From a virus (lineage: Duplodnaviria > Caudoviricetes): a DNA stretch of 54,959 nt. Shown one piece after another: positions 43,119 through 54,959 of the stretch (position 1 is the stretch's first letter; each line of letters starts with the position of its first letter). The notes below the pieces were generated by a model. The model saw only the letters and a list, made by a program, of their open reading frames with translations, searched no databases and had not been told where the DNA came from. Both the position numbers and the translations under genes were made by a program. The stretch is from IMG/VR virus record IMGVR_UViG_3300032232_001103, positions 1 to 54,959 of that record; one strand, written 5' to 3'.

Positions 43119-43863
43119 CTTTAGGCCTCCAAGTAACAATTTCCCATGTACCGTTTAAATTTTCTACTAGTGCAGTACACGACTCTACCCAATCACCACT
43201 ATTCATGTAACCTACCTCGCCTACCGTTTTAATCTCAGCTTGATGAATGTGTCCACAGATTACGCCAAAAAACTTACGTTTTTCAGCATATTTGGTAATA
43301 GTCTGCTCAAACTTAAATACAAAGTCTACTGCGCGTTTTACCCTGGACTTTAACCACTGCGATAGACTCCAGTAACCAAAGCCTAGTCTATGGCGTAACT
43401 GGTTAAATTGAGTGTTTAAACCTAGAACGAAATCATAGGCACTGTCGCCTAGCCAAGCTAACCAAGGTGCTAGTCTGGTAATACCGTCAAACATATCGCC
43501 GTGTGTAACTAACCAGCGGCGGTTGTTGAGGTCTACGTACTCGCATTGGTTTACTACTTCAATTCTACCAAATTTAAGTCCATAGCTAATTAGTGGCCGT
43601 AGAAATTCATCGTGATTGCCCGCCACGTAAACTACTCTAGTCTTTTCACGATTAGCTTTGGCTAAGACATGACGGACTACATTGGTATGTTGATTAGTCC
43701 AGCGCAGTTTATTTTGCTTGACTTTCCAACCGTCAATAATATCGCCTACTAAGTACAATTCATCACAGGTGTTAGACTTTAAAAATTGGCTTAAGTACTC
43801 AGCTTTACTAGCCTTGGTACCTAAGTGCACGTCCGAAATAAATACGGCGCGGTAGTGTGCCAT
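43075..43863 (-). CDS. plcP: Metallophosphoesterase, PlcP-like phospholipase C (often annotated UDP-2,3-diacylglucosamine hydrolase)
   Basis: FISDVHLG, LVGDIIDGW, GNHDE, HGD.FD, WLA.LGD.AY, GYWSLS, CGHIH, GDWVESCTALVE. Confidence 0.75.
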   Translation of the reverse strand: MAHYRAVFISDVHLGTKASKAEYLSQFLKSNTCDELYLVGDIIDGWKVKQNKLRWTNQHTNVVRHVLAKANREKTRVVYVAGNHDEFLRPLISYGLKFGRIEVVNQCEYVDLNNRRWLVTHGDMFDGITRLAPWLAWLGDSAYDFVLGLNTQFNQLRHRLGFGYWSLSQWLKSRVKRAVDFVFKFEQTITKYAEKRKFFGVICGHIHQAEIKTVGEVGYMNSGDWVESCTALVENLNGTWEIVTWRPKDVVVNNPSSTPTGP

Positions 43864-44015
43864 TATTTGTCACGTTTGTTGTAAAGATCAAATAAACTTT
43901 TTACTTTATCTTCTAAAACTCCTAAACGCATATCTGCTTTGGCAAAAAGCACTACAATCATAATAAAGGCCACAAATACTGGCCAAGCTTTTAACATTAA
44001 CTCGATAATTTCCAT
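43863..44015 (-). CDS. Small membrane protein (50 aa; not in the ORF track)
   Basis: MEIIELMLKAWPVFVAFIMIVVLFAKADMRLGVLEDKVKSLFDLYNKRDK; GGAGG RBS; TAATG coupling to plcP. Confidence 0.75.
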   Translation of the reverse strand: MEIIELMLKAWPVFVAFIMIVVLFAKADMRLGVLEDKVKSLFDLYNKRDK

Positions 44016-44036
44016 GGTCGACCTCCAGTTCACTAG

Positions 44037-44065
44037 AGTATAACACTTTAGGGCTGTAATGTCAA
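44037..44065 (-). promoter_or_regulatory. sigma70 promoter heading the leftward late operon
   Basis: Minus strand TTGACA-17 bp-TATACT with TG extension. Confidence 0.75.
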
Positions 44066-44100
44066 GTTGCGAATATTTTTTGGTGTCCCAAAAAATTTTC

Positions 44101-44129
44101 TTGAATTTGTTTAGTTTTAGTGATATAAT
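44101..44129 (+). promoter_or_regulatory. sigma70 promoter (divergent)
   Basis: TTGAAT-17 bp-TATAAT. Confidence 0.65.
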
Positions 44130-44148
44130 ATATGTTTTGGAGAAAGTT

Positions 44149-44298
44149 ATGTGGCGGCTGTGGGCAAAAGCATTAGGTGATAAGTATGGTTTAACGGATC
44201 GTGAGGCTGATGCGGTTTGTTGGATTAGAACTCTTATCGTGTTATCGTATTTGGTAACAAATGTGGTAATTGTGTTGGGTGTGGTGCATCACTGGTAG
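44149..44298 (+). CDS. Small membrane protein (49 aa)
   Basis: MWRLWAKALG.K.G..DREAD....IRT + TM helix; GGAG RBS; true start is downstream of the ORF-track start. Confidence 0.7.
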   Translation: MWRLWAKALGDKYGLTDREADAVCWIRTLIVLSYLVTNVVIVLGVVHHW

Positions 44299-44495
44299 CT
44301 GGCTTTGGCTTTGGCTTTGGCACCGAAAGTTTTGTGGAAAAAATTATAATGTTGGCCGTGTGGCGGGGTCCATATAGTTATATTTATTATAATGTCAACT
44401 AACCCCCTATCACAATTTTTTGGGCCGCGTCAACCCCTGGTGCAAAAATACAACATAGGGATATACCCTGCGACAAAATGTCGCGGAATTTGCGC

Positions 44496-44524
44496 TTGCA
44501 TTGTGTGCTTGACTAGCCTATAAT
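44496..44524 (+). promoter_or_regulatory. Pre-early sigma70 promoter
   Basis: TTGCAT-17 bp-TATAAT upstream of AAGGAG RBS and 44560 ATG. Confidence 0.75.
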
Positions 44525-44559
44525 TACTACATCGAAACAGCACTCACAAGGAGAGCGCA

Positions 44560-44886
44560 ATGGCAGAAAAAGCCGTAAACTATAGCCCTGAGCAAACCGC
44601 TCAGGTAATCGCGGATTATACCGCTGGTGTCAGCGTGGAAAGCATTGCATTGGCAATGGGTAAATCCGTTCGCTCAATCGTTGCTAAACTGTCACGCGAA
44701 GGCGTGTATCAGAAAAAAGCATACAAAACCAAAACGGGTGAACCCGTTGTAAAGAAGGATGCCCATGCCGATGCAATCGGCGCAATCCTTCGCTTGCCTG
44801 AGAACGATATCGAATCGTTGACTAAGGCTAATAAGAGCGCGCTTAAGGCGATCTTTGAAGCATTGGCTAATTCCAAGCCGATTTAA
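44560..44886 (+). CDS. A2: T5 A2/D3-family small DNA-binding protein, paralog 1
   Basis: NY..EQT, KSVRSI.AKLSREGVY.K, IESL.KA.K..L pattern recalled from T5 A2/D3; pre-early context. Confidence 0.65.
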   Translation: MAEKAVNYSPEQTAQVIADYTAGVSVESIALAMGKSVRSIVAKLSREGVYQKKAYKTKTGEPVVKKDAHADAIGAILRLPENDIESLTKANKSALKAIFEALANSKPI

Positions 44887-44910
44887 ATAAAGGGCGAAAG
44901 CCCTTTATTT
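44885..44910. terminator. Intrinsic terminator
   Basis: AAATAAAGGGC-GAAA-GCCCTTTATTT perfect hairpin. Confidence 0.85.
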
Positions 44911-45064
44911 ATCTTATAACGACCCGCGGTGTTGCGAAAAAACAACAGCGCGGGCGCCAAAATTATAGCATATAATTTTGGGCCGTGTCAAGGCCGCGTG
45001 CAAAAATACAACACTAGGGAAAACCCCTAGGCTTGGCCGCCGAATCCTATGCTATACTAACGTC

Positions 45065-45427
45065 ATGAATAAAGCACAACTCACCCAAGCACTGCAAGCC
45101 CGCCTCGATGAGGTATGGGGTATCTATTGCGACATTAATATTCAATTAATTCGCTTTGCTAAACCCACTATTGAATTAAACGGCAGACTTAGTAAAACGG
45201 CTGGACGCTGTTTTATGCAAGCCAATCATATTGATATTGGCACTAAGTTTTTAATCGCGCACTATGATCAGATCATGACGGAAACTGTACCGCATGAAAT
45301 CGCGCATCAAATTGACTATAACCTTAACGGCAATCCTGCCGGTAATCGTTGGCATGGCCCATCATGGCAACGCATTATGCGTCAATTGGGCGTTAATCCC
45401 GAAACTTATCACGATATGGTGGTTTGA
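45065..45427 (+). CDS. SprT-like zinc metalloprotease
   Basis: RL..TAGR, VPHEIAH, HGPSWQ.IM..LG; start at ATG 45065. Confidence 0.85.
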   Translation: MNKAQLTQALQARLDEVWGIYCDINIQLIRFAKPTIELNGRLSKTAGRCFMQANHIDIGTKFLIAHYDQIMTETVPHEIAHQIDYNLNGNPAGNRWHGPSWQRIMRQLGVNPETYHDMVV

Positions 45428-45634
45428 ATGTTAGCATGGATTGGCACAATTGCCAGCATAGCCGGATCTTTCCTTGTTGCATTAGGCGTAATGAATTGGG
45501 GATATATATGCTTTATTACCGGCACAATATCTTGGCTAATAATTGCAATAGCGCGCAGGGATAGGGCATTAGGCGTATTAAATGGGGCATTCTTAATTGC
45601 CAATGTAATTGGCATTGTTCGTTATGTAATTTAA
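45428..45634 (+). CDS. Small integral membrane protein (~3 TM)
   Basis: 68 aa, almost entirely hydrophobic; WIGT..SI.GSFLVA. Confidence 0.7.
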   Translation: MLAWIGTIASIAGSFLVALGVMNWGYICFITGTISWLIIAIARRDRALGVLNGAFLIANVIGIVRYVI

Positions 45635-45820
45635 TATGGCCAGGTGTTGTATTTTTACAACACGCTGGCGCCAAATTATAGCATATAATTTGGGCCCGTG
45701 TCAACCCCCTGGGCGAAAATACCACACTAGGGGAAACCCTGCGACAACGTGTCGCACCTTGGGCACTTGCACAATCTACAAAACCCTGTATAATACTCTA
45801 CATGAACCGGAGCGAGACAA

Positions 45821-45991
45821 ATGGCAACTAAACTACACTTGGTGTTGGCAATGAAAAAAGCCAGCAAACCCGATGCTAGGGCACATAAGCCCTTGTTTGT
45901 GAATAGCCCATTTAAGCCACAGGTTATTCCCAATAAAAAGAAAATGAAATTGGCTAAACTGTTTAATGGTTGGGGATTTGGCGATGAATAA
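45821..45991 (+). CDS. Small basic protein (56 aa; not in the ORF track)
   Basis: MATKLHLVLAMKKASKPDARAHKPLFVNSPFKPQVIPNKKKMKLAKLFNGWGFGDE; GGAG RBS; promoter TTGCAC-16-TATAAT at 45767-45794. Confidence 0.65.
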   Translation: MATKLHLVLAMKKASKPDARAHKPLFVNSPFKPQVIPNKKKMKLAKLFNGWGFGDE

Positions 45992-46181
45992 ATTCAAATT
46001 GATTGAGGAAGCGGCAAAATTCGAAACGTCGCAATTAAAACGCGATGAATTGATTTATTTTGTAGAATCTGTTAAAATGTACGAAATGATGGAATTAGAT
46101 TATGAGGCTTTAGTAACGCGGATTAACCGTACTGCTAAACACTTGTTGGATGTTAAACAATTTTTTAATGAAGGGGAATAA
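45984..46181 (+). CDS. Hypothetical protein
   Basis: MNKFKLIEE..., GGGA RBS, coupled to the upstream ORF. Confidence 0.6.
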   Translation: MNKFKLIEEAAKFETSQLKRDELIYFVESVKMYEMMELDYEALVTRINRTAKHLLDVKQFFNEGE

Positions 46182-46182
46182 T

Positions 46183-46365
46183 ATGATGTACATGGCAAAA
46201 TCCATTAATGACGATACCATTACCTCAATGGGCGAAAGCGTTCAAGAAGTTTGGGAGGATTTGCAATTCGGTTTTGAATTGACTGATGCAGATTTTGATG
46301 ATTTGCAATGGTTTGAAGTTGAACCAATTAAGGTAACTCGCAAATTGGAATTCGTTATTGAATAA
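46183..46365 (+). CDS. Small acidic hypothetical protein
   Basis: MMYMAKSINDD..., AAGGGG RBS. Confidence 0.65.
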   Translation: MMYMAKSINDDTITSMGESVQEVWEDLQFGFELTDADFDDLQWFEVEPIKVTRKLEFVIE

Positions 46366-46590
46366 ATAACAAGCCAGGGTGTTGTAAATTTACAACACCC
46401 GTGGCGCCAATTTTACCAGTAAAATTGGGCCCGTGTCAAGCAAAATTTGAAAAATTTTTGTTGTATTTATACAACGCTTGACGCGCCAAAATTATACACC
46501 AGCCTGGGCCGGTTGTCAATAGGGGAAAACCCCTATGTTGTATTTTTACAAATTTGCGCACAACCCGATTTTTCGTGTATAATTCTCTAC

Positions 46591-47094
46591 ATGGACACAA
46601 CGCAAGCAAACAAGATGATCAAACGGATCGCAATTTATGACATGGACGGGACTATCGTGGATTCCAGCCACCGTTACCGGACTATTCTCACCGATCAAGG
46701 TGAGCGCATTGATATTGGTTATTGGCGCGATAACCAACATTTGGCAATGTTGGATGGCCTATTGCCATTGGCTGAAAAATATAAACTCGATTGCATGGAT
46801 TTGGAATGTTTCACGATTATCGCTACTGCGCGTGTAATGAATGATCCAGATTGGCAATTTATGCGCGATCAATTGGGTATGCCAGATTATGTTATCTCGC
46901 GCACTCGTGACGATCAACAGTCGGGTTCCACGCTAAAGATTAACGGATTGATTAAATGCTTCGAAACTGCTAATATTAACTTGGCAATGATGACTGATGT
47001 TGTTTTCTATGAAGACAATGTAGATTACCTTAAAGCGGTATGCGATTATTTTAATATTCGCGGTGAATATATTCCAAGTAAACAAGGACACTAA
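46591..47094 (+). CDS. dmp: HAD-family deoxynucleoside-5'-monophosphatase (T5 Dmp-like)
   Basis: IYDMDGTIVDS.HR, D.LLPL, IIATARVM, FYEDN motifs; start 46591 or 46615; promoter -10 TATAAT at 46578. Confidence 0.8.
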   Translation: MDTTQANKMIKRIAIYDMDGTIVDSSHRYRTILTDQGERIDIGYWRDNQHLAMLDGLLPLAEKYKLDCMDLECFTIIATARVMNDPDWQFMRDQLGMPDYVISRTRDDQQSGSTLKINGLIKCFETANINLAMMTDVVFYEDNVDYLKAVCDYFNIRGEYIPSKQGH

Positions 47095-47095
47095 A

Positions 47096-47191
47096 ATGAC
47101 TAACGGAAACGATCCAGACAAAATTGTTTTTTATGCGCTGATTGCCAGCGTTTGTGCGGTTGCTTATCTTGTCTTTACCGGAGCGGTATAA
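47096..47191 (+). CDS. Small single-TM protein (31 aa; not in the ORF track)
   Basis: MTNGNDPDKIVFYALIASVCAVAYLVFTGAV; AAGGA RBS; TAATG coupling to the next gene. Confidence 0.6.
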   Translation: MTNGNDPDKIVFYALIASVCAVAYLVFTGAV

Positions 47192-47556
47192 TGAAAGCAT
47201 GGAATGAATTAACCCAATTGGAACAATTGGCAATAACCCATTGGGATCTTTATAAAGATGCACATAATGTGCGTCCTCGTTGGCTTGATACTAGCCAATG
47301 GACTGAATCCGATTTTGAATTGGCAATCGCTGAATTGTACACTATTTGCGATCGCAATGAGCGTATGCGTAATGCTGATGAAGCGGCCGCATTTGAAATT
47401 GTAAAAACGCGCATTGCCGCATTGCAAGAAATGCATGGTTTTGATTGGGCTGAAGCCGTTAATTGGTTGCACGCTGAATATGAGACTCAGGGCGATCAGG
47501 GTTATTTAGAGTTTCAATTGGGCATTGCATACGGTGCTCTTACCTTAAAGGATTGA
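47191..47556 (+). CDS. Hypothetical phage protein
   Basis: MKAWNELTQLEQ...WDLYKDAHNVRPR; GGAG RBS. Confidence 0.7.
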   Translation: MKAWNELTQLEQLAITHWDLYKDAHNVRPRWLDTSQWTESDFELAIAELYTICDRNERMRNADEAAAFEIVKTRIAALQEMHGFDWAEAVNWLHAEYETQGDQGYLEFQLGIAYGALTLKD

Positions 47557-47765
47557 TCATGGATTTTTTAAATTATGACATTCTGGATTGTTGTGGTGCT
47601 TATGGCCGCAAGGCTACATGGGACGATTGGGTTAATGGCCTAGACTTTAAAATTATTGATGGCCCGTACTTTAGCATTAAAGATTGCAATAAATTAAGCC
47701 AGGAATATGATGAATTGCATTTTCGCTCTGCAATGGGCGTTGAATTCCGGGTGTATTTAAAATAA
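47553..47765 (+). CDS. Hypothetical phage protein
   Basis: AYGR....DDW.NG.DFKI..GPYFSI motif; AAGGA RBS. Confidence 0.65.
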   Translation: MIMDFLNYDILDCCGAYGRKATWDDWVNGLDFKIIDGPYFSIKDCNKLSQEYDELHFRSAMGVEFRVYLK

Positions 47766-48027
47766 ATAACGAAATGTGTTGTATTTTTACAACACATGGC
47801 GCCAATTTTACCATGTAAAATTGGGCCGTGTCAAGAAAAATTTTGTAAATTTTTCGTGCTGTTGTATTTATACAACAGCTGACGCGCCAAAATTTTACCA
47901 CCAAAAAATTTTTTTGTCAATAGGGGAAAACCCCTATGTTGTATTTTTACAAATTTGTGGGTGGTGGCTGTTTTTGTGTTATTATGTGTTCTGGGCGTTG
48001 TGCCCTGGGTTCACACTATTATTTATC

Positions 48028-48729
48028 ATGGCCAAAAAACAGTTTTTCGCAATTCTTGATACTGAAACTACTTGCAATGATACTGTTGCAGATTTTGCAA
48101 TTGTTATTTGTGATCGTAACGGTCGCGTTTATCATAAATGCGCGGTATTGGTTCGCAATCATTTTGATTCAATGGATTTATTCTATGACAAAACAAAACA
48201 AGTCGGTGAAATGTGGTCGCGTGAATACGCAAGCAAAAAGCAAACCCAATACTTTGCAATGCTTGATTCAGGTTCGCGGCAATTGGCGTCTGTTGCCGCA
48301 ATCAATGCGTGGATTCAAAAAGCCATTGGCAAATACAACCCTACATTAACCGCTTATAATCTGGCATTTGATAAAAACAAATGTGCCAATACCGGAATTG
48401 ATCTTTCGGGTTTTGCTGAATCGTTTTGCCTTTGGCAAGCGGCAATTGGCAATATTTGCAAAAAACAATATCGTCAATTTGCATTAGACAATCATTTGTT
48501 TAATGCTCCGACTAAACACGGCAATATGTCCATTAAAACTACTGCTGAATCTGTTTTTGCGTTTTTAAATGGCCAATTTGTTGCAGAACCGCATACTGCA
48601 TTAGAAGATGCACAAGACTTTGAATTGCCAATTCTGGTAAACATTCTGAAAAAACGCAATTGGCGTGACAATATCATTGCACACGATTGGAAAAAGTTTC
48701 AAGTAAAAGATTTTTACAAGGCAATCTAA
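48028..48729 (+). CDS. DEDDh 3'-5' exonuclease
   Basis: ILDTETT (ExoI), AYNLAFD (ExoII), HTALEDA (ExoIII); true start ATG 48028. Confidence 0.85.
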   Translation: MAKKQFFAILDTETTCNDTVADFAIVICDRNGRVYHKCAVLVRNHFDSMDLFYDKTKQVGEMWSREYASKKQTQYFAMLDSGSRQLASVAAINAWIQKAIGKYNPTLTAYNLAFDKNKCANTGIDLSGFAESFCLWQAAIGNICKKQYRQFALDNHLFNAPTKHGNMSIKTTAESVFAFLNGQFVAEPHTALEDAQDFELPILVNILKKRNWRDNIIAHDWKKFQVKDFYKAI

Positions 48730-48730
48730 A

Positions 48731-49072
48731 ATGGAAAATTTAGCATATTATATTAAATTCTTGGGGCTGAAAAGCCCCGTAGAATTAACGCTTAAAACCA
48801 AATCCAATAAACATTCGGATGCAGTTTATTGGCCTAAATTTTCCAATAAAGGTAATTTAAAAGCGCATAAAATTACTGTATTCCTGGGCAATCAAACCCC
48901 TAATTCTCGGCGTTCATTGGATGAATTGATCGCGCACGAATTAATTCATGCTTGGCAACAAGAAAACAATATAGCCGAATTTCACGGACTTAATTTTATT
49001 CTGCTTGCAATTCAAATGAGCGACGAATTTAATTTGCCTAATATTTACCTTGCTGACTTAGACGACGAATAA
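48731..49072 (+). CDS. SprT-like/zincin metalloprotease
   Basis: LIAHELIHAWQ......FHG..F. Confidence 0.7.
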   Translation: MENLAYYIKFLGLKSPVELTLKTKSNKHSDAVYWPKFSNKGNLKAHKITVFLGNQTPNSRRSLDELIAHELIHAWQQENNIAEFHGLNFILLAIQMSDEFNLPNIYLADLDDE

Positions 49073-49079
49073 TTTGCAC

Positions 49080-49108
49080 TTGATTAACCCATCCCAACCC
49101 TGTATAAT
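49080..49108 (+). promoter_or_regulatory. sigma70 promoter
   Basis: TTGATT-17 bp-TATAAT upstream of GGAG RBS and 49133 ATG. Confidence 0.75.
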
Positions 49109-49132
49109 ATTAACTTAACTGGAGAAAACGCA

Positions 49133-49459
49133 ATGGCTGAAAAAACTGTAAACTACACCCCAGAGCAAACCCTGAATTTGATTGCCGATTACAAAAACGG
49201 TTTTACCGTTGAAGAATTGGCTTTGCAAATGGGCAAATCGGTTCGCTCAATTGTTGCTAAACTCTCGCGCGAGGGAGTTTACGAAAAGAAAACCTATAAA
49301 ACAAAAACCGGCGAGGCAGTTGTTAAAAAAGACGCGCACGCTGATGCAATTGGCGCAATTCTCCGATTGCCAGAAAACGACATTGAATCCCTGACCAAAT
49401 GCAATAAATCTGCATTAAAAGCAATTTTCGACGCATTGGCTAATTCAAAACCCATTTAA
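49133..49459 (+). CDS. A2: T5 A2/D3-family DNA-binding protein, paralog 2
   Basis: 91/108 aa identical to 44560..44886 by manual comparison. Confidence 0.65.
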   Translation: MAEKTVNYTPEQTLNLIADYKNGFTVEELALQMGKSVRSIVAKLSREGVYEKKTYKTKTGEAVVKKDAHADAIGAILRLPENDIESLTKCNKSALKAIFDALANSKPI

Positions 49460-49470
49460 TTGGGCGTTTA

Positions 49471-49499
49471 ATAAAACCGGCAATTGCCGGTTTTATTTT
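49471..49499. terminator. Intrinsic terminator
   Basis: ATAAAACCGGC-AATT-GCCGGTTTTATTTT. Confidence 0.8.
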
Positions 49500-49736
49500 A
49501 TGTAAATCGTTTTAAAAAATATAATCATTATATTTTTTAAAACGGCGCCAATTATACTAGTATAATTGGGAGCGTGTCAAGCGTTTTGCAAAAATACAAC
49601 ATAGGGACAAACCCTTAGAGTCGTTATAAATTTTGGAACCATGTGGCGCCAAAATTATACCATAATTTTGCGGCCCGTGTCAAGAGGATGTGCAAAAATA
49701 CAACATAGGGACAAACCCTAATAGGGTAAACCCTGA

Positions 49737-49854
49737 GCACCGGCCAGGTGCGCACCACTTTGGTGCATGCACCGTTCTGGGGCGCACCAAGTTGGTGCAT
49801 GCACTACTTTGGTGCAGCCATGCACCAGCATGGTGCAGAGGTAGGTACCTCTGC
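49737..49854. repeat. Tandem array of six 15-bp palindromes GCACC-N5-GGTGC
   Basis: Copies start at 49737, 49752, 49769, 49784, 49801, 49822; followed by palindrome GCAGAGGTA-GG-TACCTCTGC. Confidence 0.9.
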
Positions 49855-50023
49855 GCCAGTGCGAAATCTAGTGCAAATTCTTGCAGGTCCTACCGCGCCG
49901 ATTATACAGTGCTAAAGCTATCCGTGTCAAGTCAATTTTTCTGGGCCTCCAACCCGCAAAAATTTACAGTTGAGCGAGCCTGCCGAAGTCTGTATAATAT
50001 TATTTATAGACAGTAGGGAACCA

Positions 50024-50137
50024 ATGAAAGATTACCAAGAATGGCTTGAGGATTGGCGCGACGAGCATTTCGACTATCCACAGTATCCAGACCAGCAGCC
50101 AGACCCCAGTAATTTTGATCTTGATATTGACAACTGA
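50024..50137 (+). CDS. Small acidic protein (37 aa; not in the ORF track)
   Basis: MKDYQEWLEDWRDEHFDYPQYPDQQPDPSNFDLDIDN; promoter TTGAGC-17-TATAAT (49970-49998) and AGGG RBS. Confidence 0.55.
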   Translation: MKDYQEWLEDWRDEHFDYPQYPDQQPDPSNFDLDIDN

Positions 50138-50189
50138 ACACTGTATAATAGAATCTTCAACAGCGCAGAAACCGAAACACAAAGGACAT

Positions 50190-50501
50190 ATGATGACTGA
50201 CAAAACTGTAAACTACACCCCAGAGCAAACCGCTACCATTATCGGCCTGTACACCACGGGTAACTCTGTGGAGATGATCGCCGAGCAGGTTGGCAAATCG
50301 GTGCGGTCGATTGTGGCAAAACTCTCCCGTGAGGGAGTGTACATCCCTAAGACCGCGGCTAAGGGTCAGGGCCGGGTTACTAAAAGTGATTTGGTTACCA
50401 AACTGGCCGAGCATTTTAGTATTGATGCTGCTGAGCTTGTAAGCTTTGAAAAAGCCAGCTTTGCCGCACTAGAGTTGCTGGCCAGCAAACTCAAGGCATA
50501 A
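50190..50501 (+). CDS. T5 A2/D3-family DNA-binding protein, paralog 3
   Basis: KTVNYTPEQT...GKSVRSIVAKLSREGVY; AAGGA RBS; promoter TTGATA-17-TATAAT at 50121-50149. Confidence 0.7.
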   Translation: MMTDKTVNYTPEQTATIIGLYTTGNSVEMIAEQVGKSVRSIVAKLSREGVYIPKTAAKGQGRVTKSDLVTKLAEHFSIDAAELVSFEKASFAALELLASKLKA

Positions 50502-50526
50502 GCTCCAGGGGAGAAGAAATTTAATC

Positions 50527-50555
50527 TTGATTCTTCTCCCCAAACCCTGTATAAT
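50527..50555 (+). promoter_or_regulatory. sigma70 promoter for the putative large ncRNA
   Basis: TTGATT-17 bp-TATAAT; overlaps the GGGGAGAAGAA/TTCTTCTCCCC hairpin. Confidence 0.8.
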
Positions 50556-50561
50556 ATTATT

Positions 50562-51133
50562 ATAGACAGTTAGGAAAGAGCTTATCTGAAAGGACAAAGC
50601 GCAGATACCAGCATCACGGACCACTACCCCGCCCGCAAGCCAATGTATAGCTAGCAACCTGTAGTGCCAAGTCCACGGCTGACGACTGTCGAACAATTTG
50701 GGTGACAGCGGCGCGCATTTGGTGCAGCGTCTTAATTGTGGGGAATCTATGTTAGAGCCGAGCCACAGCCCTTAGCTAAATTAAAATCCTGGACCCTAAG
50801 GTTCGCAACCCAGATGGCTACCAGGTGGTTGTAAGCACCAAAACTTACCAAGTTGTCTAGAACTTGTAAATAACTTAGACAGTGTTCCTCCGGGACTTTA
50901 CGAGAGGTGTGCAACTAGAGCAGTACTGTCTAGCGGTTAGGCCCGCTGGTTAAAATATAGGCCTGGGTTGACGACGCAGTGTGCTAGCGTTTACGTTAGT
51001 TGCTCTGCCAGACCCAACGCGGAATGACAGGTCGCTGTAGCAAACCGGTTTGCGAAAACCACGTCGGACCAGCATAAAAACTTGTAAGAGTTCAAAACCC
51101 CGCAAGGCGACGGCTTTGGCGGGGTTTTGTTTT
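50562..51133 (+). ncRNA. Putative large (~570 nt) structured non-coding RNA of unknown family
   Basis: No plus-strand ORF of 60 aa or more between a strong promoter and a terminator; many local and long-range complementary segments. Confidence 0.65.
51094..51133. terminator. Intrinsic terminator (bidirectional type)
   Basis: AAAACCCCGC-loop-GCGGGGTTTTGTTTT. Confidence 0.85.
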
Positions 51134-51166
51134 GCCTAAATTTAGTAGCTTAGTAATTTTAGTGGC

Positions 51167-51230
51167 TAGTCTATTTTGCTCACTAGTCTATTTTGGTCAA
51201 TAGTCTGTTTTTGGACCTAGTCTGTTTGCC
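51167..51230. repeat. Four 17-bp-period direct repeats (TAGTCT(A/G)TTT core)
   Basis: TAGTCT at 51167, 51184, 51201, 51218. Confidence 0.85.
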
Positions 51231-51325
51231 AGCAAGGTGCTGCGCCAATATTATACAGTGCAAAACCTATGCTAGTCAAGTAAGAATTTTTTCTCTGACC
51301 CTAAACCGTGGCAAACTGTCACCCA

Positions 51326-51360
51326 CAAAAAAGCCCCACACAGACTTCTCTGTATGGGGC
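51326..51360 (-). terminator. Terminator after the D3-like gene
   Basis: Minus strand GCCCCATACAGA-GAAG-TCTGTGTGGGGC-TTTTTT; nested within an 11-bp CTGACCCTAAA/TTTAGGGTCAG inverted repeat. Confidence 0.75.
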
Positions 51361-51381
51361 GATTTAGGGTCAGATTTGGGA

Positions 51382-51708
51382 TTATGTGACTTTTGGGCAG
51401 TTATTTTCACTTAATCTAGTTTCTAGGACTTGTAGGATGCCTTTATTGACTTTTTCTAGACTTTCCAATAATTCAGGGTCCATTTTTAGCAATTTTGCTA
51501 TATTTTCTATGTGTTCTGACTTTTTTGTGGGTACTTCACCGCGTTTGTTTAAGTAGGCCTTTTTCTGGTAAACACCCAAACTGCTCAGTTTAGCAATAAT
51601 TGACCGTTCCGGCACCTCAAGCTCCTGAGCAATTTTTTGGACGTGAGTGCCGGTTTTGTACTGTTCAACCAGACGGTCAGTAATTTCTTTAGTATATTTC
51701 AAGTACAT
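51382..51708 (-). CDS. D3: T5 D3-like DNA-binding protein (A2/D3 family, paralog 4)
   Basis: KYT.E.T..LV..Y, RSIIAKLSSLGVY.K, LESLEK.NK..L; directly downstream of the D2-like gene as in T5; AGGA RBS. Confidence 0.6.
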   Translation of the reverse strand: MYLKYTKEITDRLVEQYKTGTHVQKIAQELEVPERSIIAKLSSLGVYQKKAYLNKRGEVPTKKSEHIENIAKLLKMDPELLESLEKVNKGILQVLETRLSENNCPKVT

Positions 51709-51714
51709 CTCCTA

Positions 51715-52505
51715 TTAATCTTCCCAAGGGAGTTTAAGCTCACCCTGGGGCATTTTAACATTAGTTTTTTCTTTGGACCCTAAACCGCCGAAGACTTCAC
51801 CTACCACTAACGGTTTGGGCATTTGATCCCAATTTTCAGGATCTAGGATCATCAGTTCAGTTCTGAGGCTAGGATGTGCAACCCAGATTTGGCACATAAT
51901 AGTGCTCAACAGTGTTGGAGCACCAGCAAATTGTGTAGCCCCCAAACCATGCAACTTCCATTGACTAGTAGGTTTGTTTTGTTGACCACTTTTGACGCCG
52001 GTTCTAGCAGTCAATCCAAAGTTTCTTATTTCAATCAGCTCCTCTGACCCTAAACCTAAACAATCTCCCCGATACTGCATAACTTCCAGCAGCTCTTTGT
52101 GCACTAGTGAATCTAAACCCTCAAGCTCCCAACGACTATAAGGGATCCCTTGATGTCGTTTCATGCCTGCTAGGATAAAGGTACAAGTTGCGAATAATTT
52201 CTACCCCACTCCGAACTCTGCGTTTTTACTAGTGCTCCACGCTTTAGCTGGGTAACTACTCGCCACAAACCAATATCCCAGCTGGTTTTAATGTTGCGGC
52301 GTGCCGTTGCCCTAGGGTCTAGTCTGCAATCATCAAGTGGGACCGCCTGCCAGGTGCCAAAGTACGCGGCAATTTGGGGCAGCATCCACAAGCCATAAAG
52401 GTTGAGTTGATGCTCCTCAGCTTGCTTTAGCAAATCCTCATGATTCAAATCATGATAAGCCTCAAAAGGCACAAGTTTAAGTTCGTTTGATTTTAATTTT
52501 AGCAT
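51715..52505 (-). pseudogene. D2: T5 D2-like gene split by a 1-nt frameshift near 52170-52180
   Basis: Upstream ORF ends ...NYSQLVPLS*; the shifted frame reads ILAGMKRHQGIPYSRW; joined YS.LVPL.L...K....IPYS.W and later M.CQ.WV match the recalled D2 pattern. Confidence 0.6.
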
Positions 52506-52705
52506 ATACGTATAGATACAATTTGCCTTAGTTGCTAGAAATTTTTTTAACTGTGTAAACTTCGAAAACTTGTACATTACAAAAGCTAAATTTTATTAAC
52601 GCTCTCCCCGTGGGGCTCAGGCGAGAGCTATAAAATTTGCTTTTTTATGTTTTCTTGTTTACTTGTAAAAAATTTCTTTGTTTAAACCTCTGTAGATTTA
52701 ACAAT

Positions 52706-52734
52706 ATTATAGCATAAATTATTCGATGTGTAAA
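52706..52734 (-). promoter_or_regulatory. sigma70 promoter for the D2-D3 unit
   Basis: Minus strand TTTACA-17 bp-TATAAT with TG extension. Confidence 0.7.
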
Positions 52735-52743
52735 GGTTGATTT

Positions 52744-53043
52744 TTAGTCGTGCCTATGATTTAGATACGAGTCTTGGTGGCTGTCGAAATACTCTGCGAA
52801 TGAGAGGTCTTGATCCTTGCCAAAGTCGTGCTCGTAAATCCAGTTTAAGGTATGCTCAAAAAGATCTGAGCCTAAGAGGTTATCTACCAGCTCATCATAT
52901 GCTCTATGCACAGGGCCGTAGATATTAACCTGGTTGTCTTGATCCAGCAATTTGATAGCTGCGTCTAGCCGCCGTTCCATGTCTTGATGGTGTAGCATAG
53001 TGTTAACATACTGTTCTGCAACTAAAAATTTAGTTAATGCCAT
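52744..53043 (-). CDS. Hypothetical protein
   Basis: MALTKFLVAEQY...WIYEHDFG; GAGGA RBS at the internal ATG. Confidence 0.65.
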   Translation of the reverse strand: MALTKFLVAEQYVNTMLHHQDMERRLDAAIKLLDQDNQVNIYGPVHRAYDELVDNLLGSDLFEHTLNWIYEHDFGKDQDLSFAEYFDSHQDSYLNHRHD

Positions 53044-53216
53044 AGCAAATCCTCTGGTAGTTGGTTGGTAAAGTGTTGTGCTGCTTGTGGAAATGTTTGA
53101 TTGGTGGCAAGCATTTGTCTGCTGATATTTAGCAACCACCAACGTGTGTCCGGCATTGTGTGCGGTAGCTTAGTGGCCGTTACGCGCACTTGCTCTGCTT
53201 CTTGAAATGTGGTCAT
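53034..53216 (-). CDS. Hypothetical protein
   Basis: 60 aa, AGGAG RBS, overlaps its neighbours in the operon. Confidence 0.55.
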   Translation of the reverse strand: MTTFQEAEQVRVTATKLPHTMPDTRWWLLNISRQMLATNQTFPQAAQHFTNQLPEDLLWH

Positions 53217-53401
53217 TTAAAGTGCTCCTGGATTGCTAGCGCTGCTCCATAGCAACTGGTTTGAGTTTTATCTCCGCGAAGGCAAACTTGCACACAACGG
53301 TTAACGATTAGCTGGCTATAACGATTTAGCCTGTCTTCCGTAATACCGTGATGCAAGTCTGCTTGCACCTGCAGTTCTCTAAATACGTTCTGTGGGTCCA
53401 T
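53213..53401 (-). CDS. Hypothetical protein
   Basis: MDPQNVFRE...LIV..C...C....I.EHF; GAGGA RBS at ATG 53401. Confidence 0.6.
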   Translation of the reverse strand: MDPQNVFRELQVQADLHHGITEDRLNRYSQLIVNRCVQVCLRGDKTQTSCYGAALAIQEHFK

Positions 53402-53597
53402 AATCCTCGTCCGTTCCAAATCCAGCGGTTTTAAAACTGTAGCCGTCATCGCTGTCGCAATCTGGCTCCTCATGCATATCTATAACTTGTTGCAGGATAT
53501 TGCTGATCAATTGATTTAAGGTAATGTCTTGCTCGTGTGCCAGTTGCATTAGCCTGAACATTTCGTCTTCGCTTAGGTCTAGTTCAATAGTTTCCAT
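53379..53597 (-). CDS. Putative ribbon-helix-helix DNA-binding protein
   Basis: IELDLSEDEMFRLMQLAHEQDITLNQLI pattern; acidic tail. Confidence 0.55.
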   Translation of the reverse strand: METIELDLSEDEMFRLMQLAHEQDITLNQLISNILQQVIDMHEEPDCDSDDGYSFKTAGFGTDEDYGPTERI

Positions 53598-53785
53598 TAG
53601 TAATAGTCTCCGCTACAGTGAGTAATTATATAATTGTATACTGGTGTGGGGTCTAAGATCCATTGACCCTCAGGCGTTAAACCACCAAAAGCTTTGTTTG
53701 GACTATGCCACCAAGCTTTGGCAAAGTCTGGGCCTAAAAGGTTTTCAAGCATTAAATCACAGCGTTGTTTTATGATTTCATTCAC
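53597..53785 (-). CDS. Stand-alone Xre/MbcA/ParS antitoxin C-terminal-like domain
   Basis: A.AWW.SPN.AFGG.TP motif. Confidence 0.55.
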   Translation of the reverse strand: MNEIIKQRCDLMLENLLGPDFAKAWWHSPNKAFGGLTPEGQWILDPTPVYNYIITHCSGDYY

Positions 53786-54146
53786 TATAAGTATCCCAAG
53801 TAATCTTAGGGTTGGTACGTTCGTATAGTTCTACCAGTTGGTCTAGTGTCCACGGCGCATCAGTTTCAAAGGTATCCAGCCAACGACTAAACCTGGCCCA
53901 GTCTAGGCTAAGCATGGGCGGCACACCAATTTCTTCTCCGTAGGGGTCACCAGTGCCGCGCACATCAATTCTACCACAACTATAGTTGTCAGTAATTAAT
54001 TCCATTTTGTAGTGTTCACCAGCTTTGCGTCCAGTATAAGGGCTATCCTGTTCTTGTACATGATGTTCCAGTGTGGTCAAATCACGTTGACGATACCAGT
54101 CTAGGCTTGTGGGACCCATCCAGTTAGTGCTGTATCTGAGCTTCAT
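53778..54146 (-). CDS. Hypothetical protein
   Basis: MKLRYSTNWMGP...YSCGRIDV; ATGA overlap with the upstream stop. Confidence 0.65.
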   Translation of the reverse strand: MKLRYSTNWMGPTSLDWYRQRDLTTLEHHVQEQDSPYTGRKAGEHYKMELITDNYSCGRIDVRGTGDPYGEEIGVPPMLSLDWARFSRWLDTFETDAPWTLDQLVELYERTNPKITWDTYSE

Positions 54147-54478
54147 GCTGTGATCCACTTAATGTCCTCTTTAAGCACAATAGTTTCAATGCCGTCATAC
54201 TCACGAATAATAAACTCCTGACCCTCAGGCATCCAAGTCAGCCTCAATCCATCAAATCCGCGAAAGCTAACGTCTGGGTGTGCCTCTTTAAGATAAAGAT
54301 AGGCAGCATCCTCAACTTCTAGCTGCAATTGAGTACCTGGTGTAGTATCCTGCCACCACAAGTACAGTTTAATCAACTCACCATCAAACATAGTTTCAGG
54401 ATACCAGGTAGCCCAAGCCGTGCCCCAATCATCGCTGTGGATTAGTGCTACTTGACCGTTAAATACATATTTTGCCAT
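54143..54478 (-). CDS. Hypothetical phage protein
   Basis: VALI.S...G..W.TW ... W.PEG..F.I.EYDG.E motif family. Confidence 0.7.
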   Translation of the reverse strand: MAKYVFNGQVALIHSDDWGTAWATWYPETMFDGELIKLYLWWQDTTPGTQLQLEVEDAAYLYLKEAHPDVSFRGFDGLRLTWMPEGQEFIIREYDGIETIVLKEDIKWITA

Positions 54479-54750
54479 TAGTTTAGGTTCCGCTTAGGTT
54501 GATTGGGGTCATTTAAACCAATAATCTTTTGCTTAGTAGACTCGCTTAGTGTGTCAAAGTCCTCGTCAGTTAACTCACGGCCTTCTGTAAGAAACTTGCC
54601 AGCAGCAAACATTTCTTTGATATGTTCAACTAGGGCATCCAAGTCTTCTTGCGAACCCTCAAAGTCATCAAAACAACCGGGAGCAAATTCTAACTGCATT
54701 TCCTCTGGGTTAAAGTCTTCAGGTTCAGTAATATCATCAAACTTATTCAT
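54478..54750 (-). CDS. Acidic hypothetical protein
   Basis: FAPGCFDDFEGSQEDLD; AAGGA RBS. Confidence 0.65.
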   Translation of the reverse strand: MNKFDDITEPEDFNPEEMQLEFAPGCFDDFEGSQEDLDALVEHIKEMFAAGKFLTEGRELTDEDFDTLSESTKQKIIGLNDPNQPKRNLN

Positions 54751-54935
54751 TGCTCTATATCCTTTAGTAGTTCTAGTACTTGATCGCCTTCTTGTTTGCC
54801 AATCTCATAAGCAGCTTTAAGCCAGTTTACAACTATCTCATACCGCTCGTAATCACTGCCCAAGTCAGCAAACAGTCTGTCAGCACGAAGGCCAAAGCCC
54901 TCCTGCTCCCACAACCAATCATTAAACCTTTTCAT
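54747..54935 (-). CDS. Hypothetical protein
   Basis: F.DWL.E.EGFGLR.DR...WL.AAYE.G; GAGG RBS. Confidence 0.65.
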   Translation of the reverse strand: MKRFNDWLWEQEGFGLRADRLFADLGSDYERYEIVVNWLKAAYEIGKQEGDQVLELLKDIEQ

Positions 54936-54959
54936 TGTCTTCCTCTACAACTTCCCACA

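What the first reader, a model, noticed from the sequence alone, without database searches (positions are those of the whole stretch)
50527..51133. Candidate large ornate phage ncRNA (~570 nt) with its own promoter and terminator
Seen: TTGATT-17-TATAAT promoter (50527-50555), then ~570 nt with no plus-strand ORF of 60 aa or more, then a strong terminator (51094-51133), in an otherwise densely coding genome. The purine tract after the promoter is not followed by a start codon. Local complementary segments found by eye: TATCTG 50583/CAGATA 50602; GGAC-CACTAC 50618/GTAGTG..GTCC 50661-74; CCTTAG 50770/CTAAGG 50796; TGTCTA 50854/TAGACA 50876; GCTAGCG/CGTTAGT 50983-51000; GGTTT-GCGA-AAACC 51047 (GNRA loop). 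Longer-range pairs: AGAGCA 50917/TGCTCT 51001; ACAGCGGC 50705/GTCGCTGT 51031; CTGACG 50679/CGTCGG 51062. Possible pseudoknots: stem TAGCGG/CCGCTG whose loop TAGGC pairs with GCCTG near 50961, and CCTGG 50788/CCAGG 50821. ACCAGCAT (50607, 51068) and AACTTGTAA (50861, 51079) each occur twice. Knowledge: large structured RNAs such as ROOL and GOLLD are phage-associated; this one lacks tmRNA and RNase P signatures. Inference: an unassigned, possibly new large RNA class.
Basis: partly seen in the sequence, partly recalled or inferred. Interest (0 to 1): 0.9.

Follow-up and report, generated by a model that had tools for sequence, protein, structure and literature searches.

The report
Modular structured RNA gene in phage
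A freshwater T5-like phage makes a roughly 570-base non-coding RNA built from three structured modules, two of which are widespread RNA families absent from the standard RNA library, and their function is still unknown.

Summary
Window 50527-51133 has a sigma-70 promoter, about 570 nt without an ORF, and a conserved terminator. It has 12 distinct full-length homologs, and near-identical sequence sits in lake metatranscriptome assemblies.

It is not shown to be one ornate fold.

It is a fusion of modules:
- **D1 (50563-50692):** found in 72 of 107 related phage stretches, mostly as a separate unit.
- **Core (50700-50771):** a three-way junction with a pseudoknot. Pairing covaries strongly in variants A and B. 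There is one variant A copy per genome in 5 of 5 complete genomes.
- **D3 (50787-51075):** specific to this clade.

In relatives the core is followed, with few or no spacer bases where read, by variant B, often a tRNA-Glu, and a hammerhead ribozyme. The window clade has D3 there instead.

D1 and variants A and B have no Rfam 15 match even at E <= 10. Function is inferred only. My leading guess is early, stable, protein-binding RNAs. A new self-cleaving or tRNA-like processing module is the boldest reading still open.

The parts
50527..50555 (+). Sigma-70-type promoter (TTGATT, 17 nt, TATAAT). It is one of four copies of a + strand promoter family in this region.
   Evidence: scores it 10 of 12. 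family D1, gives copies at 49080, 49970, 50121 and 50527. The -35 and -10 hexamers and the first ~22 transcribed bases are identical in the 5 homologs aligned with the promoter.
50563..50692 (+). Module D1: a closed multi-hairpin domain. The closing stem pairs 50565-50571 with 50684-50690. Inside are a GNRA-capped hairpin and a long hairpin spanning 50609-50681.
   Evidence: A profile finds D1 in 72 of 107 sources. In the window clade, helices 1-6 carry 4 pairs with changes on both sides. In the wide family of 55 distinct sequences, the closing stem plus the GGGC/GCCC stem are 87.3% paired. They show 26 double-change cells against 9.3 in shuffles, reached by 0 of 500 shuffles.
50700..50771 (+). 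Core motif, variant A: a three-way junction with a pseudoknot.
- P1: 50700-03 with 50768-71.
- P2: 50704-06 with 50729-31.
- P3: variable hairpin at 50712-27.
- Junction: UUAAU.
- P4: 50737-41 with 50763-67.
- P5: 50746-49 with 50753-56.
- Pseudoknot: CGG 50709-11 with CCG 50758-60.
   Evidence: On 50 distinct copies, 15 pairs are 100% paired and 4 pairs change on both sides; 0 of 500 shuffles reach this. The covariance model gives 66 matches of 53.8 bits or more in 100 sources, and the window scores 69.8 bits. There is one copy in each of 5 of 5 complete genomes. Four diverged copies carry further compensated P2 and P4 changes (read directly).
50787..50960 (+). Module D3a: the conserved part of the clade-specific 3' domain, with hairpins at about 50885-50906 and 50930-50949.
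   Evidence: It is present in all 13 clade sequences, 12 full-length and 1 partial. Helix 19 has 7 pairs, 3 of them with changes on both sides. The CCUC/GAGG hairpin becomes CUUC/GAAG, CCUA/UAGG or CCA/UGG in homologs (read). No match is found outside the clade.
50839..50871 (+). Invariant 33-nt block AAACTTACCAAGTTGTCTAGAACTTGTAAATAA inside D3a (50836-50882 was the wider stretch searched).
   Evidence: These 33 bases are identical in all 13 sequences although overall identity is 75-97%. Its predicted pairs never vary (helix 16), so they say nothing about structure. It has no significant complement elsewhere in the window.
50961..51075 (+). Module D3b: the variable, partly dispensable 3' part, with hairpins at 50983-51000 and 51040-51053.
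   Evidence: Helices 21 and 23 have 3 and 2 pairs with changes on both sides. Large parts are deleted or replaced in L085, L150 and L154.
51079..51092 (+). Small hairpin (AACUU, GUAA loop, GAGUU) just before the terminator.
   Evidence: helix 24: the closing pair switches between C-G and G-C in 4 of 12 sequences.
51094..51133 (+). Intrinsic terminator: a long G+C-rich hairpin followed by TTTTGTTTT.
   Evidence: Fold. helix 25: 16 pairs, 100% paired in 12 sequences, and one pair changes C-G to A-U in 3 of them.
51167..51227 (.). Four direct DNA repeats of TAGTCTRTTT, exactly 17 bp apart. They are probably binding sites for a DNA-binding protein. They are linked to the RNA gene but movable.
   Evidence: 5 matches in the window against 0.59 expected, with 0 of 100 shuffles reaching 5; four of the matches lie here. 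In 5 of 12 homologs (L003, L150, L151, L154, L155) the same repeats lie inside the RNA gene, right after the core.

Best explanation
**What it is**
Window 50527-51133 is a real non-coding RNA gene of an uncultivated freshwater T5-like phage. A strong sigma-70-type promoter drives one + strand transcript of about 570 nt, which ends at an intrinsic terminator.

The transcript is not one integrated fold. It is a fusion of three structured modules.
- **D1 (50563-50692)** is a closed multi-hairpin domain.
- **The core (50700-50771)** is a compact three-way junction locked by a 3-bp pseudoknot. It has about 31 invariant bases.
- **D3 (50787-51075)** is specific to this clade.

**How the relatives are arranged**
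In distant relatives D1 is a separate small-RNA unit. The core then starts a second unit. That unit reads core A, a sister motif B, often a tRNA-Glu, then a type I hammerhead ribozyme, with the parts 0-6 nt apart where read. It therefore looks like an operon of non-coding RNAs that is cut into pieces. In the window's clade, variant B, the tRNA and the hammerhead are gone, and D3 takes their place.

**What is shown and what is inferred**
Shown here:
- absence of coding capacity;
- conservation;
- compensatory base changes in D1, in variants A and B including the pseudoknot, and in several D3 hairpins;
- one locus per genome;
- presence in RNA-seq assemblies.

Inferred, at about 0.35 on its own: the modules act in trans as abundant, stable, early RNAs that bind a protein, whether a host factor, a defence nuclease or a phage regulator. 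The invariant loops and junctions would be the contact surface. The 570-nt RNA would work whole or after host RNase cuts.
For: **Non-coding**
- The longest + strand ORF is 32 aa.
- No single stop reassignment opens more than 75 aa on the + strand.
- Homologs differ by 1-2 nt insertions and deletions throughout.

**Transcription signals**
- The promoter is found and is invariant in the 5 homologs aligned with it.
- The terminator carries a compensated pair.

**Homologs**
- There are 12 distinct full-length sequences plus 1 partial, at 75-97% identity.

**Structure in the clade**
- 137 curated pairs are 97.9% paired.
- 21 pairs and 45 cells change on both sides, against 8.4 and 13.1 in shuffles. 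None of 500 shuffles reaches this.
- Controls with the partner slid by 1-3 columns give 0-6 such pairs.

**Core variant A**
- 15 of 15 pairs are 100% paired in 50 distinct copies, and 4 pairs are compensated.
- The model gives 66 strong matches in 100 sources.

**Variant B** (46 distinct sequences collected by sequence profile only)
- 98.1% of cells are paired against 72.5% in shuffles.
- 161 double-change cells compare with 43.6 in shuffles and 9-18 in slid controls.
- All 3 pseudoknot pairs covary.

**D1**
- Found in 72 of 107 sources, with covariation in its two alignable stems.

**Modularity**
- Architectures over 107 sources: D1-A-B-HH 28, D1-A-B-tRNA-Glu-HH 18, D1-A 13 (the window's clade).
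- A TATAAT-like hexamer ends 4-15 nt before the core in 41 of 46 distinct flanks outside the clade. A T run follows D1 in 26 of 45.
- A repeat insertion lies between the core and D3 in 5 of 12 homologs.

**Single locus**
- One match in each of 5 of 5 complete genomes.

**RNA libraries**
- Contigs from 4 lake or freshwater metatranscriptome runs of 4 studies lie on 50496-51069 at 90-99% identity or more.
- Contigs over the RNA have word depth 182 (X2), 180 (X3) and 28-291 (X4). Contigs on the neighbouring small gene have about 34-36 (X2, X3) and about 3 (X4).
- Single contigs bridge D1, the core, the insertion and D3.

**No known family**
-.
Against: **Folding and structure**
- Single-sequence folding is no better than shuffles (z = -0.6).
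- D3 is known only from 13 closely related sequences.
- In 12 sequences an all-against-all scan finds 627 column pairs that appear to covary. Shared ancestry therefore inflates such counts.
- RNAalifold gives different D3 folds for the whole RNA and for the domain alone.
- The clade structure was derived from the same sequences on which it was scored.

**Strand**
- Alignment folding prefers the + strand only weakly. For D1 it favours the - strand.
- The strand therefore rests on the promoter, the terminator, U-G pairs such as 45 of 50 at the fourth P1 pair, and the + strand tRNA and hammerhead in relatives.

**Selection bias**
- The 50 variant A copies were picked with a pattern that allowed only some substitutions. 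The 100% paired figure is therefore partly built in.

**Expression**
- The evidence is assembled contigs only. It gives no ends, no strand and no true abundance, and DNA carry-over is possible.
- In X1 one 710-nt contig covers both the gene and the RNA at the same depth.

**Function**
- Nothing tested here bears on protein binding.
Confidence: 0.6

Rival explanations
1. The core motif, in variants A and B, is a new class of self-cleaving ribozyme. It would cut the transcript at its own border, and D1 and D3 are the RNAs it releases. In relatives it would work beside the hammerhead to dice the non-coding RNA operon.
For: - The fold is compact and pseudoknotted, with about 31 invariant and 11 nearly invariant positions, many of them unpaired.
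- Covariation is strong.
- A and B are packed 0-6 nt from their neighbours where read (A to B 0-23 nt), beside a tRNA and a hammerhead whose core is intact in 33 of 35 distinct copies.
- Recalled, not checked here: new ribozyme classes were previously found by looking near hammerhead and twister ribozymes in phage-like DNA.
Against: - No cleavage site can be named.
- There is no match to any Rfam ribozyme model at E <= 10.
- Metatranscriptome contigs run across both borders of the core without a break (records 1, 7 and 14). Contigs cannot show cleavage either way.
- In most distant relatives the core appears to start the transcript, so a cut at its 5' border would have little to release.
Confidence: 0.15
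2. Variants A and B are tRNA-like modules. P1 stacked on P4 would mimic the acceptor and T arms. The pseudoknot would mimic the contact between the D loop and the T loop. Host RNase P and other tRNA-processing enzymes would cut them out, and they would then act as tRNA mimics or decoys.
For: - The modules are tRNA-sized, at 72-90 nt.
- They sit head to tail with a genuine tRNA-Glu, with 1-6 nt spacers where read.
- The 3' strand of P4 runs straight into the 3' strand of P1, as the T stem does into the acceptor stem.
- A 3-bp contact joins an internal loop to the P4 loop.
- D3 carries a 19 of 21 nt match to the D arm of the relatives' tRNA-Glu, scoring 27 against a shuffle mean of 17.4, sd 2.8 and maximum 28.
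Against: - ARAGORN and the Rfam tRNA model do not call the modules.
- P1 has only 4 bp.
- No CCA or discriminator base follows P1.
- There is no anticodon-like loop, because the P3 loop is variable.
- The D-arm similarity is marginal.
Confidence: 0.12
3. The whole 570 nt is one large integrated RNA machine of the ROOL or GOLLD type, and its domains must fold together.
For: - One promoter and one terminator are conserved in 12 homologs.
- Single RNA-seq contigs bridge D1, the core and D3.
- A 33-nt invariant block lies in D3.
- RNAalifold on the whole alignment proposes some long-range helices.
Against: - Those long-range helices pair core bases that the 50- and 46-sequence families show to be paired within the core.
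- D1 and the core occur without D3 in 28 + 18 or more relatives.
- An insertion of about 60-70 nt is tolerated between the core and D3, and D3b is partly deleted in 3 homologs.
- The folding z-score is -0.6.
Confidence: 0.1
4. The region is mainly a DNA-level control element, such as an origin of replication or a regulatory hub. The transcript would serve as a primer or activator, and the conservation would reflect protein-binding DNA sites.
For: - Four 17-bp-spaced repeats lie next to the gene, or inside it in 5 of 12 homologs.
- Promoter-like sites are dense: 23 against 7.5 expected in 48500-53000.
- Three paralogous small DNA-binding proteins flank the region.
Against: - DNA sites do not explain compensatory changes that keep RNA-type pairs, including G-U, or a pseudoknot.
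- The repeats change position relative to the RNA, so their placement is not tied to its structure.
- A strong terminator ends the transcript before the repeats in the window.
Confidence: 0.06

Closest known systems
ROOL and GOLLD large structured RNAs of phages and bacteria
   Same: A phage-borne non-coding RNA several hundred nt long, richer in G+C than its surroundings, with unknown function.
   Different: There is no match to any Rfam 15 model. It is made of modules that occur separately in relatives. No conserved long-range architecture was found.
Stable small RNAs co-transcribed with the tRNA cluster of phage T4
   Same: Phage non-coding RNAs of unknown function, packed next to tRNA genes in one transcription unit and released by processing.
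   Different: No sequence comparison was made. Here the modules carry a pseudoknotted three-way junction and a hammerhead is part of the unit in relatives. The window's own version has lost the tRNA.
Type I hammerhead ribozyme (Rfam clan CL00010)
   Same: Relatives carry CUGANGA, stem II, GAAA, stem III and GUC at the place where the window has D3. Stems I, II and III show compensated changes (read).
   Different: The window's RNA has no hammerhead core on either strand. Even in relatives the Rfam models reach only 17.8 bits against a threshold of 48.5, because stem III holds an insertion of about 50 nt.
Theta (HDV-like) ribozymes next to phage tRNAs (PMC10879173; I saw only the search listing and the start of the abstract)
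   Same: Small structured RNAs placed directly beside phage tRNA genes and proposed to act in tRNA maturation.
   Different: There is no Rfam HDV-type match at E <= 10. The core's helix order (P1 closes both ends; P2 with P3 and P4 with P5 as arms; a loop-to-loop pseudoknot) is not the nested double pseudoknot of HDV-like ribozymes. The comparison of topology is my own reading.
Candidate structured RNAs predicted from IMG/VR (Fremin et al. 2023, PMC10690425; passages read with 'find')
   Same: That study mined the same kind of viral contigs and reports 8495 candidates from DNA viruses, including tRNA-like ones.
   Different: The passages read name no hammerhead or ribozyme (0 occurrences each).

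Membership tests
Any Rfam 15 family, including ROOL, GOLLD, tmRNA, RNase P, 6S, riboswitches and the self-cleaving ribozyme classes | A covariance-model match at the family's gathering score | tested here: not met
   There are 0 matches on the whole window. At E <= 10 on 49000-52000 only chance-level hits appear, and those that touch 50556-51133 (FsrA 15.3 bits at the 5' edge, istR 18.3 bits and isrJ 18.7 bits at the terminator) score at most 18.7 bits, far below their gathering scores. D1, A and B of relative L006 also have none at E <= 10.
Large integrated RNAs of the ROOL or GOLLD type | One conserved architecture spanning the whole RNA, with long-range helices kept in all members | tested here: not met
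   Modules occur separately. Long-range pairs are not compensated. An insertion and deletions between and within domains are tolerated.
Hammerhead ribozyme | Core CUGANGA, stem II, GAAA, stem III and a UH cleavage site | tested here: not met
   A pattern scan of the window on both strands finds none in 50556-51133. The only hit lies in a coding region at the far end of the window. The feature is met in relatives: 33 of 35 distinct copies.
tRNA or tmRNA | A cloverleaf with anticodon arm and T loop that ARAGORN or the Rfam tRNA model recognises | tested here: not met
   ARAGORN finds 0 genes in the window and Rfam finds none. Relatives do carry a tRNA-Glu(UUC) in the locus, in 17 of 60 loci scanned.
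Riboswitch or cis-regulatory leader | Position in the 5' leader of a regulated coding gene | tested here: not met
   No ORF of 33 aa or more follows on the + strand before the terminator. In relatives the motif is followed by another RNA module, a tRNA or a hammerhead.
Self-cleaving ribozyme (new class) | Site-specific self-scission of the transcript | not testable with these tools
   Only assembled contigs were available, and they cannot show RNA ends.
Independent bacterial-type transcription unit | A sigma-70 promoter upstream and an intrinsic terminator downstream, both conserved | tested here: met
New motif family 'GGGU...CUUAAU...GCCC' (variants A and B, defined here) | P1, P2, P4 and a 3-bp pseudoknot in the stated order, with the UUAAU junction | tested here: met
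   The window copy scores 69.8 bits with model R1. All 15 pairs are formed in it.

The most novel reading that the evidence does not exclude
The pseudoknotted three-way junction (GGGU, P2, pseudoknot strand, P3, P2', CUUAAU, P4 with a GAA loop and the second pseudoknot strand, then GCCC; variants A and B) is a new class of catalytic or tRNA-mimicking RNA. Freshwater T5-like phages would use it, together with a hammerhead and a tRNA-Glu, to build and dice an early operon of non-coding RNAs. The products, including D1 and the window's D3, would be RNA-only effectors that disarm or redirect a host protein.
Probability: 0.2. Interest if true: 0.9.

Novelty: categorically new. Interest (0 to 1): 0.78.

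Why it matters
Two RNA families, D1 and the A/B pseudoknot motif, turn up in dozens of roughly 100-kb T5-like phage genomes from lakes. Their pairing covaries, many unpaired bases are invariant, and no Rfam model matches them.

They sit in a tightly packed unit with a tRNA-Glu and a hammerhead ribozyme. That is the genomic neighbourhood in which new ribozyme classes were found before (recalled, not checked here).

The window shows a natural fusion in which the tRNA and hammerhead are replaced by a third module. That gives ready-made constructs for testing which parts are needed.

If the core is catalytic or a tRNA mimic, it adds a new RNA class. If the RNAs are protein decoys, it adds an RNA-only layer to early phage takeover.

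The novelty claim is at the level of RNA family. It rests on Rfam 15 and on text searches. The supplementary lists of PMC10690425 could not be seen.

Tried and rejected
**Homologs in cultured phages**
- blastn of 50500-51140 and megablast of 40000-54959 against 50,697 phage records found no match.
- The A-B-tRNA-hammerhead stretch of L025 also found none.
- The terminase is about 50% identical to Vibrio T5-like phages.

**D3 outside the clade**
- A profile search with all filters off at E <= 10 hit only terminators.
- The pattern AAGTTGTCTAGAACTTG gave 3 extra stretches, all of them chance.

**Cellular genomes**
- A core pattern in one genome for each of 185,579 species gave 1 hit. It is a 2.9-kb contig of a Saccharibacteria MAG, probably binned phage DNA.

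**Coding**
- Rejected. Frame-breaking insertions and deletions occur throughout.

**Targets of the invariant block**
- No complement beyond chance was found in the window. The other half of the genome and the host were not searched.

**Strand by alignment folding**
- Not decisive.

**All-against-all covariation in 12 sequences**
- Useless: 627 pairs appear to covary.

**RNAalifold on the 55-sequence D1 alignment**
- It returned no structure. I therefore scored only two stems that I could place by eye.

**Region after the hammerhead in relatives**
- Poorly conserved.

**Metatranscriptome observations I do not use as evidence**
- No contig lies on 51087-51368.
- Contigs end near 50780-50784.
- Adapter letters follow 51069 in X4.
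- Contigs cannot show ends, and the breaks coincide with the variable insertion.

**Literature**
- Five core sequence strings found only unrelated primers, in 20 papers.
- Three topic searches found nothing on these motifs.

- Supplementary files were not requested because they are closed.
Full report
**1. What the window is**

The window is an IMG/VR virus record of 54,959 bp, estimated 51% complete. It encodes siphovirus-type head, portal, terminase and tail proteins. Its large terminase is about 50% identical to those of 113-118-kb Vibrio T5-like phages. Complete relatives are 99-104 kb with direct terminal repeats.

**2. The observation**

The promoter TTGATT-17-TATAAT lies at 50527-50555. 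It belongs to a family of four + strand promoters in this region. The longest + strand ORF between it and the terminator is 32 aa. No single stop reassignment opens a long frame.

The terminator hairpin at 51094-51133 appears in the fold and is kept in 12 of 12 homologs, with one compensated pair.

Some things are no better than chance. The folding energy gives z = -0.60. The repeated 8- and 9-mers are within shuffle expectation. No Rfam family matches at gathering scores or at E <= 10. ARAGORN finds no tRNA or tmRNA.

**3. Homologs**

I searched IMG/VR with the 103-aa DNA-binding protein encoded just upstream (50190-50498). The search returned 594 confirmed relatives, of which the best 80 loci were kept.

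- Full-length RNA homologs were at first only L003 and L004.
- Exact-pattern scans added L085 and L086.
- A metagenome scan added nine more stretches.
- In total there are 12 distinct full-length sequences and one partial, at 75-97% identity.

A stretch of about 90 nt (window 50698-50786) matched 43 loci in the profile search.

**4. The core motif**

The conserved stretch folds as follows:
- P1: GGGY with GCCC.
- P2: GAC with GUC.
- P3: a variable hairpin.
- A UUAAU junction.
- P4: UGUGG with CCACA.
- P5: a variable hairpin inside the P4 loop.
- A 3-bp pseudoknot between CGG (50709-11) and CCG (50758-60).

On 50 distinct copies, all 750 cells of these 15 pairs are standard pairs. Four pairs change on both sides, in 7 cells. 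None of 500 shuffles and none of the slid controls reaches this. Those copies were selected with a pattern that allowed only certain substitutions, which inflates the paired percentage.

A covariance model without the pseudoknot found 66 matches of 53.8 bits or more in 100 sources, one of them in the window. Four diverged copies showed further compensated changes. In P2, GAC/GUC becomes GGAA/UUCC or GUA/UAC. In P4, GUGG/CCAC becomes GACA/UGUC, GCAG/CUGC or GUUG/CAAC (read directly).

**5. Variant B**

The weaker model matches turned out to be a sister motif, variant B. It keeps the same helix order, the CUUAAU junction and a GAA-containing P4 loop.

I collected variant B by sequence profile only, giving 60 hits and 46 distinct sequences. 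Its 16 pairs are 98.1% paired, against 72.5% in shuffles. It has 161 double-change cells, against 43.6 in shuffles and 9-18 in slid controls. All three pseudoknot pairs covary, for example GAG/CUC, AAG/CUU, AAC/GUU and AGG/CCU. This is the strongest evidence that the fold, pseudoknot included, is real.

Variant B is absent from the window's clade.

**6. D1**

The first 130 nt of the transcript form a domain closed by GACAGUU (50565-71) pairing with GACUGUC (50684-90). A profile finds this domain in 72 of 107 sources.

In distant relatives D1 starts right after a TATAAT. In 26 of 45 distinct cases it ends in a T run. A new promoter-like site then precedes the core in 41 of 46 distinct flanks. 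D1 and the core therefore look like separate units there, and they are fused in the window.

Only two D1 stems could be aligned reliably across the family. They are 87.3% paired, with 26 double-change cells against 9.3 in shuffles. None of 500 shuffles reaches this, and slid controls give 1-12. RNAalifold itself returned nothing on that alignment.

**7. What relatives have where the window has D3**

Over 107 sources the module orders are as follows:

| Order | Sources |
|---|---|
| D1-A-B-hammerhead | 28 |
| D1-A-B-tRNA-Glu-hammerhead | 18 |
| D1-A (the window's clade) | 13 |
| None | 20 |
| Partial or truncated | the rest |

- Neighbouring modules are 0-6 nt apart in the compact loci read (A to B 0-23 nt); in a few loci such as L009 and L025 the gaps exceed 100 nt.
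- The only tRNA in the locus is tRNA-Glu(UUC), found in 17 of 60 loci scanned.
- The hammerhead has CUGANGA, a covarying stem II and GAAA in 33 of 35 distinct copies. Stems I and III also show compensated changes (read).
- Rfam's hammerhead models give only 17.8 bits, probably because stem III holds an insertion of about 50 nt.
- The window's RNA has no hammerhead core.

**8. D3**

D3 has no detectable relative outside the clade. On the 12-sequence alignment, a curated structure of 137 pairs is 97.9% paired. It combines the core from the wide family with the other domains from RNAalifold. It has 21 pairs and 45 cells changed on both sides, against 8.4 and 13.1 in shuffles. None of 500 shuffles reaches this, and slid controls give 0-6 pairs.

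Several local hairpins are convincing: 50930-49, 50983-51000, 51040-53 and the CCUC/GAGG hairpin. The overall D3 fold is not settled, for four reasons.
- RNAalifold changes its answer with the stretch given.
- Twelve related sequences yield 627 spurious covarying column pairs.
- The most conserved 33 nt never vary.
- D3b is partly deleted in L085, L150 and L154.

A 19 of 21 nt match between D3 (50927-47) and the D arm of the relatives' tRNA-Glu is marginal, scoring 27 against a shuffle maximum of 28. It hints that D3 may contain tRNA debris.

**9. Expression**

Twenty-three RNA runs share sampled words with 50100-51500. I laid four runs from four studies, three from lake water in 2017 and one from freshwater in 2025. 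All carry contigs at 90-99% identity or more over 50496-51069.

- Word depth over the RNA: 182 (X2), 180 (X3) and 28-291 per contig (X4).
- Word depth on contigs over the neighbouring gene: about 34-36 (X2, X3) and about 3 (X4).
- In X1, one contig covers both at depth 8.

Single contigs bridge D1, the core, a 65-nt insertion and D3. This agrees with an abundant co-transcript. Contigs give no strand, no ends and no true level, and DNA carry-over cannot be excluded.

**10. Interpretation**

The evidence supports a genuine non-coding, structured, modular RNA gene. I put that at 0.6, a figure that includes my functional guess only as a flagged inference.

The function is not shown. I rank the options as follows:
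- stable early RNAs that bind a protein (about 0.35 on its own);
- a new self-cleaving class for the core (0.15);
- tRNA-like modules handled by RNase P (0.12);
- one integrated large RNA (0.10);
- a DNA-level origin or control element (0.06).

**11. Novelty**

D1, A and B match nothing in Rfam 15. They were not found in print by sequence string or by topic. One study predicted 8495 candidate RNAs from IMG/VR (PMC10690425, passages read). Its lists are in supplements I could not open, so prior computational prediction cannot be ruled out.

Noticed in passing
window 49460-50020: A second stretch without ORFs. It holds three perfect-consensus - strand promoters (TTGACA, 18 nt, TATAAT, at 49930, 49683 and 49580). 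Short hairpin-plus-T terminator-like sites follow (49720-49706, and a repeat copy near 49616). These could give very short transcripts.
   Followed up: no
window 49737-49840: Four or more copies of the palindrome GCACCA-N4-TGGTGC, overlapping one another. They look like an operator array for a dimeric DNA-binding protein (D5, D8, I1-I13).
   Followed up: no
window 49133-49459 (+), 50190-50501 (+), 51382-51708 (-): Three paralogous proteins of about 105 aa share the motif KLSREGVY and match PHROG families for DNA-binding and D5-like regulators. They flank the RNA gene. One of them lies directly upstream of D1 in the relatives, but those loci were fetched with that protein, so the linkage is partly by construction.
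   Followed up: partly
window 51167-51227; L003, L150, L151, L154, L155 inside the RNA gene: Four TAGTCTRTTT repeats lie 17 bp apart, after the terminator in the window. In 5 of 12 homologs the same repeats are inserted between the core and D3. RNA-seq contigs carry that insertion.
   Followed up: partly
window 50511-50544, and the same place in relatives: An inverted repeat (GGGGAGAAGAA ... TTCTTCTCCCC) encloses the -35 hexamer of the promoter in its loop. Relatives keep such a hairpin with different arm sequences, for example AGGGGTCAGA ... TCTGACCCCT in L025.
   Followed up: no
relatives, e.g. L041 5305-5429, L006 4826-4943, L013 4724-4834: A type I hammerhead ribozyme with an insertion of about 50 nt in stem III lies directly after tRNA-Glu or variant B. 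It scores below Rfam's thresholds.
   Followed up: partly
L108 7674-8028: ARAGORN calls a permuted tmRNA with tag peptide ANDEVFALAA, plus eight tRNAs, on a related phage contig.
   Followed up: no
window 50025-50137: A 37-aa, very acidic ORF (MKDYQEWLEDW...) sits behind a promoter and leader nearly identical to those of the RNA gene (D12).
   Followed up: no
window 51294-51308, 51360-51374, 51776-51789, 52045-52055: The word GACCCTAAAC or its complement recurs (D4, I19, I21). TTAGGGTCAG also recurs upstream of promoters in relatives and inside the hammerhead's cleavage region. Whether this is one protein site or a coincidence is open.
   Followed up: no
L156 (2.9-kb contig of a Candidatus Saccharibacteria MAG): This is the only hit for the core pattern among genomes of 185,579 species. 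It is probably a phage contig binned by mistake.
   Followed up: no
L036, L120 and L135 (one 100,412-bp contig): The core lies near both ends of the contig. In that genome the RNA locus therefore falls within or next to the terminal repeat.
   Followed up: no
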